A stretch of DNA of 64,000 bases from Escherichia phage DCP80: sequence record PQ671644.1. One strand, written 5' to 3'. Under the pieces are notes generated by a model. It made no database searches, was not told where the DNA came from, and saw only the letters and a program-made list of their open reading frames with translations. Each line of letters starts with the position of its first letter. The stretch's first letter is position 1. Of the stretch, positions 4,511 to 63,980 are shown in pieces. A program made the position numbers and the translations under genes.

Positions 4511-4520
4511 NNNNNNNNNN
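4511..4520. other. N-run (scaffold junction)
   Basis: 10 n; flanking genes (34 fragment vs unrelated minus-strand gene) are not adjacent in T4. Confidence 0.95.
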
Positions 4521-9759: not shown

Positions 9760-9800
9760 NNNNNNNNNNNNNNNNNNNNNNNNNNNNNNNNNNNNNNNNN
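9760..9800. other. N-run (scaffold junction)
   Basis: 41 n. Confidence 0.95.
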
Positions 9801-33040: not shown

Positions 33041-33784
33041 ATGACACGTAACGAATATATCCAGGCCTTTAACGCAACTATCGACACAAAAGTAAAACCA
33101 TTGACAGGCGAATCGGCTATCCTTTTAATTATCAATTATTGGTTAAATCAGATTGATTCGACGATTGTTGCATCTGGTCGCTTCAAGAAAGACATTGCAA
33201 CTATTGCGAGTCGTGCCGGTAATGATGATATCAAGAAAACTTTTAAAGGTTCCAGAGTCCTGGCGTACCTGGTTAATAAAGACCTTCTTCATAAGTTTGG
33301 TGTTGAATCCAACCGCGGTAAAGGTACAATTGGGTATCATTGGTTTGGCGATGTTGAAAAATACTACCTTGATAAACAAGGCTATACTGTTTCTGAATTC
33401 GCACATTGCTGGGCTCGTGAATTCAGAGATAACAAAATGTCTATCATAAAATCAGCGACAAAATTGATGGGCGGTGATTTTCGCACTATCTCCCATTTGG
33501 CTGAGCACATGATAAAGGTTAAAGAGTCTGGTGAAAACCAGGTAATTATTACAGTTAAGCATGAGTTCTTTACGCCGGTGGCTACTCCAGAAAATGTCAA
33601 AAAGTATCTTGATGTTGCCTGTACGCTTTCTCATCAGCTGGTGTGTGCCCTTAACTATATGCGCACTGTTGAAAAAATTAAAGTAGACCCTATCACCAGT
33701 GCTCATGGTTGGAAAGGTTGGAAAATTGTGGTGACATTACCGACGATGAAGATGAGGACGATGAATAATGTTTATTATCCCTGA
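33041..33784 (+). CDS. hypothetical protein (247 aa) at the position of T4 genes 20/67
   Basis: ORF overlapping the gene 68 start by 17 nt; no resemblance to portal gp20 or gp67 noticed. Confidence 0.55.
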
Positions 33785-53696: not shown

Positions 53697-53720
53697 NNNN
53701 NNNNNNNNNNNNNNNNNNNN
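53697..53720. other. N-run (scaffold junction)
   Basis: 24 n. Confidence 0.95.
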
Positions 53721-53721
53721 T

Positions 53722-54180
<459 letters not shown>

Positions 54181-54209
54181 AAGTAAAGCAAACTATTAGA
54201 GGACTCAAA

Positions 54210-56189
54210 ATGGCTTTATTATCCCCGGGCATTGAGCTCAAAGAAACAACGGTCCAAAGCACTGTTGTTCGTAACGCGACGGGTCGTGCGGCGCTGGTTG
54301 GTAAATTCCAGTGGGGCCCAGCTTTCCAGGTAACTCAGATTACAAACGAAGTGGAACTTGTCGATTTGTTTGGTGGCCCGAACAATATCACGGCTGACTA
54401 CTTTATGAGTGGAATGAACTTCCTTCAATATGGTAATGACCTGCGCACTGTTCGTGTTGTTAACCGTGATTTTGCTAAAAACGCATCTCCGGTAGCAGGG
54501 AACATCGAAAGTACAATCGCTACTGCTGGTTCTAACTATGCAGTCGGTGACGCTATCCAGGTTAAATACAACCAGACTGTTGTTGAAACTTCTGGCCGTA
54601 TCACCAAGGTTGACGTTGACGGGAAAATCCTCGCGGTCTTCATTCCGTCTGACAAAATTATTTCCTTTGCAAAATCTGTAAACCAGTATCCTGCTTTAGG
54701 CCCGGCTTGGGCTGCTGAAATCCTGACCACTTCTTCAGGTGTGTCTGGCACGATTACCCTCGGGAAAATTGTTACCGATTCTGGTATCCTGTTGACCGAA
54801 GCAGAAAATAGTGAAGAAGCTATTACCTCTCTGGAATTCCAGGCTTCCCTGCAGAAATATGCAATGCCGGGTGTTGTTGCTCTTTATCCTGGTGAAATCG
54901 GTTCGACTCTCGAAGTTGAAATCGTTTCCAAAGCTGCTTATGATGCTGGCTCTTCAAAGATGCTTGACATCTATCCGAATGGCGGTTCCCGTGCTTCTGT
55001 AGCTCGTGCAGTGTTTAACTATGGCCCACAGTCTGACGACCAGTATGCAATCATCGTTCGCCGTGATGGTGCTATCGTTGAAAACGTCGTTCTGTCAACT
55101 AAAGAAGGCGATAAAGACGTTTACGGCAACAACATTTATCTGGATGACTACTTTGCAAAAGGTACTTCCAATTACATCTATGCAACTTCTCTGAACTGGC
55201 CAAAAGGTTTTGCAGGCATCATCAATCTGATGGGCGGTATTTCTGCAAACGACCAGGTGACCGCTGGTGATTTGATGCAAGGTTGGGACCTGTTTGCTGA
55301 CCGTGAAGCACTGCATATTAACCTGCTTATTGCTGGTGCTTGTGCTGGTGAAGGTGATGCGACTGCTTCCACTGTTCAGAAGCACGTAGTTTCTATCGCT
55401 GACGAACGTCAGGATTGCTTGGCATTTATCTCTCCACCGAAAGGTCTGTTGGTTAACGTTCCACTGACCCGCGCAGTGGATAACCTGATTGACTGGCGTA
55501 CAGGTAGTGGTGCATTTGATACTGATAACATGAATATCAGCACGACTTATGCAGCGATTGATGGCAACTATAAATATCAGTATGATAAATATAACGACGT
55601 TAACCGTTGGGTTCCTCTGGCAGCTGATATGGCTGGTCTGTGTGCTCGTACTGATGATGTTTCTCAGCCTTGGATGTCTCCGGCCGGCTATAACCGTGGT
55701 CAGATTCTGAACGTTCTGAAATTGGCAATCGAACCACGTCAGACTCAACGTGACCGCATGTATCAGGAAGCTATCAACCCGGTTGTTGGTTTCGCAGGTG
55801 GCGATGGTTTTGTTCTGTACGGTGATAAGACTGCAACTAAAGTTCCATCTCCGATGGACCATATCAACGTTCGCCGTCTTACGAATATGCTGAAGAAAAA
55901 TATCGGTGACGCATCCAAATATAAACTGTTTGAGCTTAACGATAACTTCACTCGTGCATCATTCCGTATGGAAACTTCTCAATACTTGGATGGTATTCGT
56001 GCGCTCGGTGGCATTTATGAAGGTCGTGTAGTTTGTGATACTACTAACAACACCCCAGCGGTCATAGACCGAAATGAGTTTGTTGCTAGTATATATTTTA
56101 AACCGGCAAGGGCGATAAATTATATCACACTTAATTTCGTAGCAACAAGCACGGGCGCTGATTTCGATGAGCTGATTGGACCACAATAA
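54210..56189 (+). CDS. 18: tail sheath protein gp18
   Basis: 659 aa (identical length to T4 gp18); N-terminus LLSPGIELKETTVQSTVV...GKFQWGPAFQ and FMS.MNFLQYGNDLR match T4. Confidence 0.95.
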   Translation: MALLSPGIELKETTVQSTVVRNATGRAALVGKFQWGPAFQVTQITNEVELVDLFGGPNNITADYFMSGMNFLQYGNDLRTVRVVNRDFAKNASPVAGNIESTIATAGSNYAVGDAIQVKYNQTVVETSGRITKVDVDGKILAVFIPSDKIISFAKSVNQYPALGPAWAAEILTTSSGVSGTITLGKIVTDSGILLTEAENSEEAITSLEFQASLQKYAMPGVVALYPGEIGSTLEVEIVSKAAYDAGSSKMLDIYPNGGSRASVARAVFNYGPQSDDQYAIIVRRDGAIVENVVLSTKEGDKDVYGNNIYLDDYFAKGTSNYIYATSLNWPKGFAGIINLMGGISANDQVTAGDLMQGWDLFADREALHINLLIAGACAGEGDATASTVQKHVVSIADERQDCLAFISPPKGLLVNVPLTRAVDNLIDWRTGSGAFDTDNMNISTTYAAIDGNYKYQYDKYNDVNRWVPLAADMAGLCARTDDVSQPWMSPAGYNRGQILNVLKLAIEPRQTQRDRMYQEAINPVVGFAGGDGFVLYGDKTATKVPSPMDHINVRRLTNMLKKNIGDASKYKLFELNDNFTRASFRMETSQYLDGIRALGGIYEGRVVCDTTNNTPAVIDRNEFVASIYFKPARAINYITLNFVATSTGADFDELIGPQ

Positions 56190-56227
56190 GGCTTTACATC
56201 TGATTTAATTTGGGCTATAATGCGCGT

Positions 56228-56878
56228 ATGTTAATAAATACGCGCAAGGATTTACAAGTGATTATAGATAAATTTGTTGAAGTTAAAATCATGTACTGTA
56301 ATTATCAGTATTTTTTGGATTTGGGATACGACTTGAAACCATTAGGTGCCGCTAAGTGGGGCTATAAATCACAAGTGATTATGGCTAAAGTTGAAGATAT
56401 GCTCCCGGGTTCAAACAAATATGTCAATTGTCAATGTGATAAATGTGGTGCTACATTTAAACAAAGAATTGCCAGGAACACAGATGTGTGCTATCCATGC
56501 CGCAAAAATTCTTTTATGAAGGGAAATAAATTAGGCGAAGCAAATAAAGGAAAGGTTATTTCCTGTATGCAAGGTGATAAACATCCAAGATGGAATCCTA
56601 ACAAAAAAGAATTTGATGCATATGGAAGACGTGTTAGATGGTTAACTCTCAAACAAAAAGATATTTGGTCAAAATGGGAAAATGCAGATAAGATAGGAAA
56701 ATGTGGTGTAGAAGGTGCATATCAACTTGACCACAAAGTTTCTATTGCATATGGATTTTATAATCACATACCAGAGACTGTTATCGCTTCGCTCAACAAT
56801 TTATCTATAGTCACTTGGGAATCTAATAGGTCCAAAGGAAAATCAAATAGTATTGACTTATGGGATATATTATCCTGA
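56228..56878 (+). CDS. HNH homing endonuclease (free-standing, inserted between genes 18 and 19)
   Basis: Zinc knuckles CQCDKCG / CYPCRK, then HNH core (GDKHPRWNPN ... YQLDHKVSIAYGF ... NLSIVTWESNRSKG); first in-frame ATG at 56228 (track ORF begins at TTG 56210); weak RBS. Confidence 0.7.
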   Translation: MLINTRKDLQVIIDKFVEVKIMYCNYQYFLDLGYDLKPLGAAKWGYKSQVIMAKVEDMLPGSNKYVNCQCDKCGATFKQRIARNTDVCYPCRKNSFMKGNKLGEANKGKVISCMQGDKHPRWNPNKKEFDAYGRRVRWLTLKQKDIWSKWENADKIGKCGVEGAYQLDHKVSIAYGFYNHIPETVIASLNNLSIVTWESNRSKGKSNSIDLWDILS

Positions 56879-56902
56879 CAGTAAATGTAATTAAGCAGTA
56901 AA

Positions 56903-56955
56903 CCGTAGAACCATTATACAATGCTATAAATAAAAGCATATCATCGGTTCTACGG
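56903..56955. repeat. 10-bp perfect inverted repeat (CCGTAGAACC / GGTTCTACGG) enclosing a late promoter
   Basis: Arms at 56903-56912 and 56946-56955; 33-nt loop contains TATAAATA at 56925-56932. Confidence 0.6.
56925..56932 (+). promoter_or_regulatory. late promoter TATAAATA (distal, upstream of gene 19)
   Basis: Exact TATAAATA inside the inverted-repeat loop. Confidence 0.45.
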
Positions 56956-57013
56956 ACTCCTCAGAGCTCCTCCAGCGACCTAAATACATTTATTGATGAA
57001 TCATATTACCTAG

Positions 57014-57021
57014 TATAAATA
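57014..57021 (+). promoter_or_regulatory. late promoter TATAAATA (proximal, for gene 19)
   Basis: Exact TATAAATA 52 nt upstream of the gene 19 ATG. Confidence 0.55.
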
Positions 57022-57073
57022 CATGCATCAGGGACGCGTTCGCGCGACCTGTGTCTATAAAGAGGATTCCTTA

Positions 57074-57104
57074 ATGGAGTTGACCGATATCACACGCGCT
57101 TTCG
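57074..57104 (+). CDS. 19: tail tube protein gp19, first 10 codons (truncated by N-run)
   Basis: MELTDITRAF resembles the T4 gp19 N-terminus (..DDVTRAFESGDF); GAGGA RBS; follows gene 18. Confidence 0.55.
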
Positions 57105-57140
57105 NNNNNNNNNNNNNNNNNNNNNNNNNNNNNNNNNNNN
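57105..57140. other. N-run (scaffold junction)
   Basis: 36 n. Confidence 0.95.
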
Positions 57141-63922: not shown

Positions 63923-63980
63923 NNNNNNNNNNNNNNNNNNNNNNNNNNNNNNNNNNNNNNNNNNNNNNNNNNNNNNNNNN
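63923..63980. other. N-run (scaffold junction)
   Basis: 58 n. Confidence 0.95.

What the first reader, a model, noticed from the sequence alone, without database searches (positions are those of the whole stretch)
56210..56955. HNH homing endonuclease inserted between tail sheath (18) and tail tube (19) genes, followed by an inverted repeat around a late promoter
T4 has genes 18 and 19 adjacent. Here a 217-aa zinc-knuckle HNH protein sits between them, with a weak RBS, followed by a perfect 10-bp inverted repeat whose loop carries a TATAAATA, and a second TATAAATA closer to gene 19. This is the signature of a free-standing homing endonuclease that has invaded a conserved structural operon; the duplicated late promoter may restore gene 19 expression.
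Basis: partly seen in the sequence, partly recalled or inferred. Interest (0 to 1): 0.6.

Follow-up and report, generated by a model that had tools for sequence, protein, structure and literature searches.

The report
Mobile HNH nuclease gene between sheath and tube
A selfish, mobile nuclease gene (the uncharacterised "19.1" family) sits between the tail sheath and tail tube genes of this T4-like coliphage; this is an ordinary kind of element, and the hairpin and two late promoters behind it are native to the phage, not products of the insertion.

Summary
An ORF fills the gap between gene 18 (sheath) and gene 19 (tube). A perfect 10-bp inverted repeat lies at 56903-56955 with TATAAATA in its loop, and a second TATAAATA lies at 57014.

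- **Start codon:** the conserved start is GTG 56258 behind an AAGGA ribosome-binding site, giving 206 aa, not 217.
- **Protein:** an N-terminal CxxC...CxxC zinc ribbon and a C-terminal HNH-like fold with invariant D158-H159...N181...N190. No Pfam HNH model matches it.
- **Mobility:** the window is an unordered draft of a Gaprivervirus (VR7/SP18-like). Close relatives either carry this ~700-bp cassette (VR7, annotated "gp19.1") or lack it (VR20, SP18). The family sits at this junction in all 34 occupied loci checked with sizeable matches, down to phages whose sheath is ~45% identical. It is under purifying selection. Together this is the pattern of a free-standing homing endonuclease gene.
- **Not supported:** the inverted repeat and both late promoters also occur in insert-free genomes, so they are native.
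- **New leads:** an early-type promoter plus leader hairpin, a chimeric allele with a swapped N-terminal domain, and insert-linked synonymous changes in gene 18 that may mark the target site.

The parts
54210..56189 (+). Gene 18, tail sheath (659 aa). The cassette begins directly after its TAA stop codon.
   Evidence: ORF. Five gp18/sheath Pfam domains. 97-99% amino-acid identity to VR7, VR20 and SP18 gp18.
56103..56125 (+). Cluster of synonymous differences in gene 18 (codons P-A-R-A/S-I-N-Y-I) that tracks whether the site is occupied. Candidate recognition or cleavage site, or co-conversion tract.
   Evidence: The allele AGC-ATY-AAC is in 12 of 14 empty-site genomes and 0 of 11 occupied ones. 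Fisher p = 2e-5, not corrected for relatedness. Occupied genomes from several genera share ...ATA AAT TAT AT....
56193..56221 (+). Sigma-70 / T4-early-type promoter carried by the cassette (TTTACA, 17 nt, TATAAT).
   Evidence: Matches 11 of 12 consensus positions. Only 2 such sites occur in the 64-kb window, and the chance is about 0.0015 per 120 nt. Also present in VR7, RZ, TH57, QL01 and the inverted copy L018.
56221..56246 (+). Leader hairpin (TGCGCGTAT, 8 nt, ATACGCGCA). Its loop holds AATAAATA (56233-56240), a one-mismatch late-promoter box that is a perfect TATAAATA in VR7 and RZ.
   Evidence: Hairpins of different sequence sit at this position in other lineages.
56246..56260 (+). Ribosome-binding site AAGGA (56246-56250) and the conserved GTG start codon (56258-56260).
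   Evidence: In read-through RNA the start region is predicted to pair with sequence upstream of the -10 box.
56258..56878 (+). Nuclease gene of the 19.1 family (PHROG 5104), 206 aa plus stop codon.
   Evidence: PHROG 5104, E = 6e-81. 239 phage records carry the family. dN/dS is 0.04-0.44. Predicted structure has mean pLDDT 89.9.
56435..56500 (+). Zinc ribbon CxxC...CxxC (C60, C63, C78, C81) in the N-terminal, presumably DNA-binding, domain.
   Evidence: The four cysteines are invariant. Weak DUF4379 treble-clef match, E = 6e-4, below the Pfam cut-off. PDB sequence matches are to zinc ribbons only.
56729..56836 (+). HNH / beta-beta-alpha-metal motif (D158-H159 ... N181 ... N190-R-x-K193).
56903..56955 (+). 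Native hairpin of the 18-19 spacer (10-bp perfect arms plus an inner 5-bp stem) with late promoter TATAAATA (56925-56932) in the loop.
   Evidence: Present in all 15 Gaprivervirus genomes that could be aligned here, with or without the cassette.
56962..56993 (+). 32-nt patch replaced in all six A/B-type occupied Gaprivervirus genomes relative to all nine empty ones. It is linked to the cassette and marks the right end of the transferred block.
   Evidence: It is not seen in Tequatrovirus, where the right flank is identical in both states.
57014..57021 (+). Second native late promoter TATAAATA, proximal to gene 19.
   Evidence: Identical in insert-free genomes.
57074..57104 (+). Start of gene 19 (tail tube), cut by a contig boundary.
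   Evidence: The 99%-identical Logan contig L047 continues into full gp19, gp20, gp67 and gp68.

Best explanation
This is a free-standing homing endonuclease gene of the uncharacterised '19.1' family (PHROG 5104), lodged in the spacer between gene 18 and gene 19.

**Shown.**
- A ~700-bp cassette lies directly after the gene 18 stop codon. It carries its own promoter-like site, a leader hairpin, a ribosome-binding site with a GTG start, and a 206-aa ORF.
- The cassette is present or absent among near-identical phages. The family occupies this same junction across very divergent T4-like phages.
- The protein is under purifying selection. It has a zinc-ribbon N-terminal half and a C-terminal half with an HNH-like fold and an invariant D-H...N...N motif.

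**Inferred.**
- In a mixed infection the enzyme nicks or cuts the empty allele near the junction. Recombinational repair from the occupied genome then copies in the cassette together with flanking markers.
- The most likely recognition region is the conserved gene 18 segment about 65-85 nt upstream of the insertion point (equivalent to window 56103-56125). Empty genomes there read AGC-ATY-AAC-TAC, and occupied genomes always carry other synonymous codons.
- Expression is probably gated. Late read-through RNA from gene 18 would contain the hairpin and pair the GUG region with upstream sequence. RNA started at the cassette's own promoter would lack that partner.
- The downstream inverted repeat and both late promoters are native gene 19 signals that the insertion left intact.
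For: **Presence/absence at one site.**
- VR7, TH57, RZ and DK-13 span 3368 bp against 2704 bp in VR20, SP18, P896 and VR25, at 90-97% flank identity. The boundaries are seen.
- In Tequatrovirus the insertion is precise, replacing about 9 nt after the TAA. T4, RB14 and RB51 are empty, while the pSs-1 and NBG2 types are occupied.

**Site fidelity.** All 6 annotated phage loci checked and 28 IMG/VR loci (L011-L038) have the gene next to gp18 and/or gp19, between the two wherever both lie on the fetched stretch. This holds down to about 45% gp18 and about 30-37% gp19 identity. One copy, L018, is inverted and has its own TTTACA-17-TATAAT.

**Nuclease identity.**
- D158, H159, N181 and N190 are invariant and sit on a beta-beta-alpha element in a model with mean pLDDT 89.9.
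- The top 14 Foldseek matches of the C-terminal domain model are all HNH/beta-beta-alpha-metal nucleases.
- Relatives also match PHROGs named homing or HNH endonuclease, and three match NUMOD3.

**Functional gene.** dN/dS is 0.04-0.44 and the ORFs are intact.

**Flank linkage.** A right-hand 32-nt patch plus loop variants associate perfectly with occupancy in 15 Gaprivervirus genomes. The left-hand gene 18 wobble cluster associates with occupancy in two genera.

**Mosaic alleles.** The window and VR7 are 93-100% identical over the 3' part of the ORF and downstream, but only 58-66% over the middle. N-half versus C-half identities are discordant in several pairs, for example P0002/P0009 at 48% against 97%.

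**Promoter and hairpin.**
Against: - No Pfam or NCBIfam HNH profile matches, and a PDB sequence search finds only zinc ribbons.
- No cleavage, target site or homing has been demonstrated for any family member that I could find.
- The flank associations are not corrected for shared ancestry, and hitch-hiking alone could produce them. RB14 and RB51 are empty yet carry the occupied-type gene 18 codons.
- The right-hand patch does not recur in Tequatrovirus.
- In this window the loop's late-promoter box is imperfect (AATAAATA), and the promoter and RNA gating are predictions only.
- Retention at one junction across deep divergence could also mean the gene benefits the phage.
Confidence: 0.8

Rival explanations
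1. The gene is a retained accessory nuclease that benefits the phage rather than a purely selfish element. It could exclude markers of competing T4-like phages, or assist DNA packaging like the HNH proteins that sit beside terminase and portal genes in HK97- or GVE2-type phages.
For: - The gene lies within the 17-18-[X]-19-20 packaging and tail block.
- It stays at the same junction down to about 30-45% identity of its neighbours.
- It is under purifying selection.
Against: - The gene is dispensable. It is absent from relatives ~95-97% identical in the flanks and from T4.
- From general knowledge, T4-type phages package by a headful mechanism using gp17's own nuclease.
- Several unrelated alleles replace one another at the site (window type, VR7 type, VR26 type at 34% identity), which fits turnover of a selfish element.
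Confidence: 0.1
2. The protein is an inactive or non-nucleolytic remnant, for example a DNA-binding regulator of the gene 18/19 late transcription unit built from a zinc ribbon and a degenerate HNH-like fold.
For: No curated HNH profile recognises it. The strongest Pfam and PDB sequence signals are to the zinc ribbon. According to the review read, T4 I-TevI doubles as an autorepressor.
Against: The only four columns invariant across 40 distant relatives are exactly the D-H...N...N catalytic set. They are placed on a beta-beta-alpha element. A decaying gene would not show dN/dS of 0.04-0.4.
Confidence: 0.06
3. One reading: the inverted repeat around a late promoter and the second TATAAATA were created or duplicated by the insertion in order to restore gene 19 expression.
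For: Both features lie immediately downstream of the inserted ORF. Occupied genomes do differ in the hairpin loop (one A/G change and an extra TC) and in the 32-nt patch.
Against: All nine insert-free Gaprivervirus genomes have the same hairpin, the same loop TATAAATA and the same second TATAAATA. Insert-free T4-type phages have a hairpin plus two late promoters as well.
Confidence: 0.03

Closest known systems
gp19.1 of phage T6-type and VR7-type genomes (PHROG 5104)
   Same: It is the same family at the same site. VR7 and DK-13 annotate the ORF as 'gp19.1 hypothetical protein, similar to T6 gp19.1'. The window protein matches PHROG 5104 at E = 6e-81. The 3' third of the gene and the downstream spacer are 93-100% identical to VR7 and RZ.
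   Different: The window allele is a chimera. The middle of the gene, which encodes the N-terminal zinc-ribbon domain, is only 58-66% identical in nucleotides to VR7. The best GenBank phage protein match is 67.5% (QL01). Only a Logan metagenome contig is 99% identical. The family has no described function; a few annotation pipelines call it homing, HNH or type II restriction endonuclease.
T4 MobE (and the Mob / I-TevIII / I-HmuI style of phage HNH homing endonucleases)
   Same: Both are free-standing HNH-type genes inserted between conserved phage genes in the orientation of their neighbours. A NUMOD3 motif is present in MobE and in three distant relatives of this family.
   Different: MobE has its HNH domain (PF01844) at the N-terminus followed by NUMOD3. 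Here the zinc ribbon is N-terminal and the HNH-like motif is C-terminal. hhalign of the family profile against MobE gives 1% probability. I-TevIII and I-HmuI were not compared directly.
[quoted passage not shown]
   Same: The inferred mechanism is the same: cleavage in a conserved neighbouring gene some tens to hundreds of bases from the insertion point, with flanking polymorphisms carried along. Those papers are cited in the review read. The flank linkage here is seen.
   Different: SegF and SegG are GIY-YIG enzymes. For this family the target and the co-conversion are inferred from comparative sequence only.
Hairpin and promoter control of I-TevI, segB and Aeh1 mobE; the seg43(25) hairpin of Aeromonas phage 25
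   Same: A stem-loop lies just upstream of the start with a late-promoter box inside it. It is a perfect TATAAATA in VR7 and RZ. Only transcripts started inside the structure would be translatable. seg43(25) likewise has a hairpin abutting but not covering the RBS (review; structures here).
   Different: The window copy also carries an 11/12 sigma-70 / early-type promoter. The review states that no T4 endonuclease-specific promoter is of the early class. In the window copy the loop box is degenerate (AATAAATA). None of this has been tested.
Small HNH nucleases Gme HNH (4h9d) and GVE2 HNH (5h0o); Cas9 HNH domain
   Same: These are the best structural matches to the C-terminal domain. The Asp-His ... 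Asn ... Asn arrangement resembles the Cas9 HNH catalytic residues (the Cas9 comparison is from memory).

Membership tests
HNH (beta-beta-alpha-metal) nuclease superfamily | Conserved catalytic His (general base, usually preceded by Asp), a structural Asn, and a metal-binding Asn or His | tested here: met
   D158, H159, N181 and N190 are invariant in 31 close relatives and are the only invariant columns in 40 distant ones.
HNH (beta-beta-alpha-metal) nuclease superfamily | Two antiparallel strands followed by a helix that carry those residues, with structural similarity to solved HNH nucleases | tested here: met
HNH (beta-beta-alpha-metal) nuclease superfamily | Match to a curated HNH sequence profile (Pfam PF01844 and relatives, or NCBIfam) | tested here: not met
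   There is no HNH hit for the window protein. One of 32 relatives matches HNH_4 at E = 0.078. There are indirect links only: 8 of 40 relatives match phrog_12131 'homing endonuclease', and others match HNH-named PHROGs.
HNH (beta-beta-alpha-metal) nuclease superfamily | Metal-dependent DNA nicking or cleavage | not testable with these tools
   This needs purified protein.
Free-standing homing endonuclease gene | Sporadic presence or absence at one locus among closely related genomes | tested here: met
   In Gaprivervirus, 7 loci are occupied and 9 empty. In Tequatrovirus, two occupied types coexist with many empty genomes, including T4.
Free-standing homing endonuclease gene | Discrete insertion in an intergenic spacer that leaves the neighbouring genes intact | tested here: met
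   The cassette starts directly after the gene 18 TAA. Gene 19 and its signals are intact.
Free-standing homing endonuclease gene | Flanking polymorphisms linked to the element (co-conversion, or a cleavage-resistant target variant) | tested here: inconclusive
   The right patch and the gene 18 wobble cluster show perfect or near-perfect association (p = 2e-5). The test is uncorrected for phylogeny. RB14 and RB51 are exceptions, and the patch is absent in Tequatrovirus.
Free-standing homing endonuclease gene | Site-specific cleavage of the element-free allele and super-Mendelian inheritance in mixed infection | not testable with these tools
   This needs cleavage assays and phage crosses.
T4 Mob-type HNH homing endonucleases (MobA-E, I-TevIII) | N-terminal PF01844 HNH domain followed by NUMOD-type DNA-binding modules, with sequence similarity to Mob proteins | tested here: not met
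   MobE has PF01844 at residues 21-44 and NUMOD3 at 106-122. hhalign of the family profile against MobE gives 1% probability. The domain order is reversed here. Only MobE was tested.
Packaging-associated HNH proteins (HK97 gp74 / GVE2 type) | Conserved, required partner of the terminase in its phage lineage | tested here: not met
PHROG 5104 / gene 19.1 | Full-length profile match and position between gp18 and gp19 | tested here: met
   E = 6e-81 over residues 17-221 of the 222-aa ORF. The position is confirmed.

The most novel reading that the evidence does not exclude
The 19.1 family would be an old lineage of HNH homing endonucleases specialised on a single target in the conserved C-terminal coding region of the tail sheath gene (...P-A-R-S-I-N-Y-I...).
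- It has followed the 18/19 junction across the whole T4 superfamily by repeated homing.
- It carries the last ~100 nt of gene 18 with it between genera.
- It changes specificity by swapping its N-terminal zinc-ribbon domain.
- In the Gaprivervirus and Dhakavirus lineages it would be expressed from its own early-type promoter, with late read-through RNA kept silent by start-codon pairing. That timing differs from the endonuclease-specific promoters listed for T4, which are middle or late.
Probability: 0.3. Interest if true: 0.5.

Novelty: new member of a known kind. Interest (0 to 1): 0.35.

Why it matters
- It assigns a likely function (mobile HNH nuclease) to a gene that most of the sampled records among the 239 carrying it label 'hypothetical protein'.
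- It corrects the reading of the 18-19 spacer. The hairpin and the two late promoters are native gene 19 signals, not scars of invasion.
- It provides testable material: a candidate target site inside the sheath gene, natural occupied/empty strain pairs for homing crosses (for example VR7 and VR20), natural domain-swapped alleles for studying how such nucleases change specificity, and a possible case of early-promoter-driven endonuclease expression.
- None of this overturns current understanding of phage homing endonucleases.

Tried and rejected
- **Curated sequence profiles.** Pfam was run on the window protein, on 32 close relatives and on 40 distant relatives. It gave no HNH model hit, only a sub-threshold DUF4379 zinc-ribbon match. 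NCBIfam gave nothing relevant.
- **PDB by sequence profile.** Only zinc ribbons matched (mS66, zinc-finger proteins).
- **hhalign against T4 MobE.** No similarity, so the Mob-type assignment was dropped.
- **Literature.** Searches for gp19.1 and for a homing endonuclease between sheath and tube genes, plus two Virology Journal reviews, gave no description of this family. The T6 and T2 'other HNH' entries in the 2010 table may or may not be this gene; I could not verify that.
- **Exact-pattern scan of IMG/VR with the gene 19 leader.** It returned only VR20 and VR25.
- **Rfam and tRNA scans of 56100-57104.** Nothing found.
- **Inverted repeat as a terminator.** The scan finds no T-run terminator on the + strand in 56100-57104.
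- **Right-hand 32-nt patch as a general target site.** Rejected as general, because Tequatrovirus right flanks are identical in occupied and empty genomes.
Full report
**What the window is.** The 64-kb window contains 14 runs of N, each ending on a multiple of 20. The segment holding the finding is 53721-57104. It matches Gaprivervirus phages (the VR7/SP18 group of T-even-like coliphages) at 90-97% identity. The two neighbouring segments map tens of kilobases away in the same genomes. They carry dda/srd/dexA and primase/dCTPase/soc. The window is therefore a set of unordered contigs of one phage. Gene 19 is cut at 57104 for that reason only. A 99%-identical Logan contig (L047) continues into complete gp19, gp20, gp67 and gp68.

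**Checking the observation.** The features are real.
- Gene 18 (tail sheath, five gp18 Pfam domains) ends at 56189.
- An ORF in frame from 56210 ends at 56878.
- A perfect 10-bp inverted repeat lies at 56903-56912 / 56946-56955.
- TATAAATA occurs in its loop (56925-56932) and again at 57014-57021.
- Gene 19 starts at ATG 57074.
- The hairpin folds better than 199 of 200 shuffles.

Two details need correcting. First, every family member begins 'MIIxK', which corresponds to GTG 56258. That codon is preceded by AAGGA seven bases upstream. In VR7 the upstream ATG runs into a stop after two codons. The protein is therefore 206 aa with a good ribosome-binding site, not 217 aa with a weak one. Second, 'HNH' cannot be read from any curated profile (see the protein section below).

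**The element is mobile.**
- Megablast of the segment finds relatives in two states. VR7, TH57, RZ and DK-13 span 3368 bp. VR20, SP18, P896, VR25 and many others span about 2704 bp.
- Alignment shows that the extra ~700 bp begins directly after the gene 18 stop codon.
- VR7 and DK-13 annotate the ORF as 'gp19.1 hypothetical protein, similar to T6 gp19.1'.
- tblastn finds the family in 239 phage records. Hosts include Escherichia, Klebsiella, Shigella, Acinetobacter, Salmonella, Serratia, Sinorhizobium and Shewanella.
- In every annotated case inspected it lies between sheath and tube: VR7, RZ, QL01, a Klebsiella phage, pSs-1 and Shewanella phage Thanatos-2.
- Among the IMG/VR loci with sizeable matches, 28 (L011-L038) have the gene next to gp18 and/or gp19, between the two wherever both lie on the fetched stretch. 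This includes environmental phages whose sheath is only ~45% and tube ~30-37% identical to this one. In L018 the gene is inverted relative to its neighbours.
- In Tequatrovirus there are two occupied types (pSs-1-like and NBG2-like) and a majority of empty genomes, including T4, RB14 and RB51. The insertion there replaces about 9 nt after the TAA.
- Within Gaprivervirus alone, three alleles occupy the site: the window type, the VR7 type, and the VR26 type at 34% identity.
- dN/dS is 0.04 between VR7 and RZ and 0.1-0.44 for more distant pairs, so the gene is kept functional.

**The protein.**
- PHROG 5104 ('unknown function') matches at E = 6e-81.
- Pfam gives only a sub-threshold DUF4379 treble-clef match over the CxxC...CxxC region. 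NCBIfam gives nothing. A PDB sequence-profile search finds only zinc ribbons.
- An exhaustive profile search finds 6050 cluster representatives at E <= 0.001, often sharing only the C-terminal ~100 residues.
- Across 40 of these distant relatives the only invariant columns are D158, H159, N181 and N190.
- The AlphaFold model (mean pLDDT 89.9) puts D158-H159 at the end of strand 155-159, N181 before strand 182-186, and N190 in helix 187-193. That is a beta-beta-alpha-metal arrangement.
- The top 14 Foldseek matches to a C-terminal-domain model are all HNH/beta-beta-alpha-metal nucleases, though none is significant.
- Relatives also match PHROGs named homing endonuclease or HNH endonuclease, and three carry NUMOD3.

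I take HNH-superfamily membership as supported by motif and fold, with the caveat that the curated sequence profiles fail. It is not a Mob-type enzyme. MobE has its HNH at the N-terminus followed by NUMOD3, and the profile comparison gives 1% probability.

**The inverted repeat and late promoters are native.** All nine insert-free Gaprivervirus genomes aligned have the same hairpin 31-36 nt after the gene 18 stop, the same TATAAATA in its loop, and the same second TATAAATA before gene 19. Insert-free T4-type phages have an equivalent hairpin and two late-promoter boxes. These are annotated as such in SA21RB, and the T4T sequence shows the same. Nothing was duplicated, and the insertion simply left gene 19's signals in place.

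**What the cassette brings with it.**
- Directly after the gene 18 stop lies TTTACA-17 nt-TATAAT (56193-56221), matching 11 of 12 consensus positions.
- Only two such sites exist in the whole window. The chance of one in a 120-nt stretch is about 0.0015.
- The same promoter-like site is present in VR7, RZ, TH57, QL01 and the inverted copy L018.
- From memory, GTTTAC is the T4 early-promoter -35 consensus, and QL01 has exactly that.
- The site is followed by a 9-bp hairpin (56221-56246). Its loop holds a perfect TATAAATA in VR7 and RZ, but AATAAATA here.
- In read-through RNA the GUG region is predicted to pair with sequence upstream of the -10 box. The partner sequences differ in VR7, QL01 and the Klebsiella phage yet still pair.
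- Other lineages have hairpins of unrelated sequence at the same place, several with TATAAATA in or beside them.

This resembles the hairpin and promoter control described for I-TevI, segB and mobE in the review read. That review also states that no T4 endonuclease-specific promoter is of the early class, so an early-type promoter here would be a departure. All of this is prediction.

**Flanking footprints.**
- *Right side.* All six A/B-type occupied Gaprivervirus genomes differ from all nine empty ones in three ways: one loop base, an extra TC in the loop, and a completely replaced 32-nt patch at 56962-56993. The transferred block therefore runs from 56190 to about 56993, with the native hairpin inside it. 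Tequatrovirus shows no such patch.
- *Left side.* The window's gene 18 is 97-100% identical to VR20 and SP18 until about 56020, and then drops to 84-92% against every relative.
- *Codon cluster.* The differences cluster in codons P-A-R-A/S-I-N-Y-I (56103-56125). Empty genomes read AGC-ATC/ATT-AAC-TAC in 12 of 14 cases, including T4. None of 11 occupied genomes does. Fisher p = 2e-5, uncorrected for relatedness.
- *Shared wobble bases.* Occupied genomes from Gaprivervirus, Dhakavirus, Klebsiella, Tequatrovirus, Shewanella and Acinetobacter phages mostly share ...ATA-AAT-TAT/TTT-AT... at the wobble positions.
- *Exceptions.* RB14 and RB51 are empty but have the occupied-type codons. That would fit loss of the element or conversion without it.

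I read this as a co-conversion tract and the most likely location of the recognition site. Hitch-hiking alone cannot be excluded.

**Mosaic allele.** Against VR7 and RZ the window is 80-93% identical over the leader and first codons, 58-66% (VR7; 49-61% for RZ) over 56321-56620, and 93-100% from 56721 through the downstream spacer. The best GenBank phage protein is 67.5% identical (QL01). Family-wide, the N-halves are far more divergent than the C-halves (median 31% against 57%). Some pairs are sharply discordant, such as P0002/P0009 at 48% against 97%. Exchange of the zinc-ribbon half between alleles is the simplest explanation.

**Verdict.** This is an ordinary kind of element: a free-standing homing-endonuclease-type gene in a T4-like phage. 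It belongs to a widespread family that is named (19.1) but uncharacterised. The window carries a new chimeric allele. The candidate target site in gene 18, the cassette's own early-type promoter and the domain swapping are leads worth a bench test, not established facts.

Noticed in passing
window 1-64000 (N runs at 4511-4520, 9760-9800, ... 53697-53720, 57105-57140, ... 63923-63980): The window is a chain of about 15 fragments separated by 14 N runs that all end on multiples of 20. Adjacent fragments come from distant parts of a Gaprivervirus genome. The fragment before the finding carries dda/srd/dexA. The one after it carries primase/dCTPase/soc on the opposite strand.
   Followed up: partly
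L005:3885-4466 (Escherichia phage QL01, KT176190.1 99307-99888): QL01 has a second extra ORF (193 aa, 'hypothetical') between gene 19 and gene 20. It gives a weak, sub-threshold match to the SegE GIY-YIG domain (E = 0.0046). It may be another free-standing endonuclease one gene further on.
   Followed up: partly
L018:1501-2079 (IMGVR_UViG_3300009563_000455): In this distant T4-like contig the family member lies between gp18 and gp19 but in the opposite orientation. It is preceded by its own TTTACA-17-TATAAT site.
   Followed up: partly
L025:1501-2052 (Escherichia phage VR26, NC_028957.1 98254-98805): VR26, of the same genus, carries a third and very different allele (34% identity) at the same junction. 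It has a different leader hairpin (GGGGA-TGAAAG-TCCCC) and lacks the CCGTAGAACC arm of the native hairpin in the fetched stretch.
   Followed up: partly
L057 and L058 (RB14 NC_012638.1, RB51 NC_012635.1), last ~90 nt of gene 18: These two empty-site phages carry the gene 18 codon variant otherwise seen in occupied genomes (AGT ATA AAT TAT). That would fit past loss of the element or conversion without it.
   Followed up: no
window 33101-33129: This is the only other site in the window matching the sigma-70 consensus at 11 of 12 positions (TTGACA-17-TTTAAT, + strand). It was not examined further.
   Followed up: no
MG010123.1 9098-9712 ('Staphylococcus phage SAJK-IND', 32 kb record): A record labelled as a Staphylococcus phage contains a 57%-identical copy of this T4-like gene. 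It is probably a mislabelled or contaminated entry.
   Followed up: no
window 54173-54180: A TATAAATA box lies 30 nt upstream of the gene 18 ATG. It is the likely late promoter whose transcripts would read through into the cassette.
   Followed up: no
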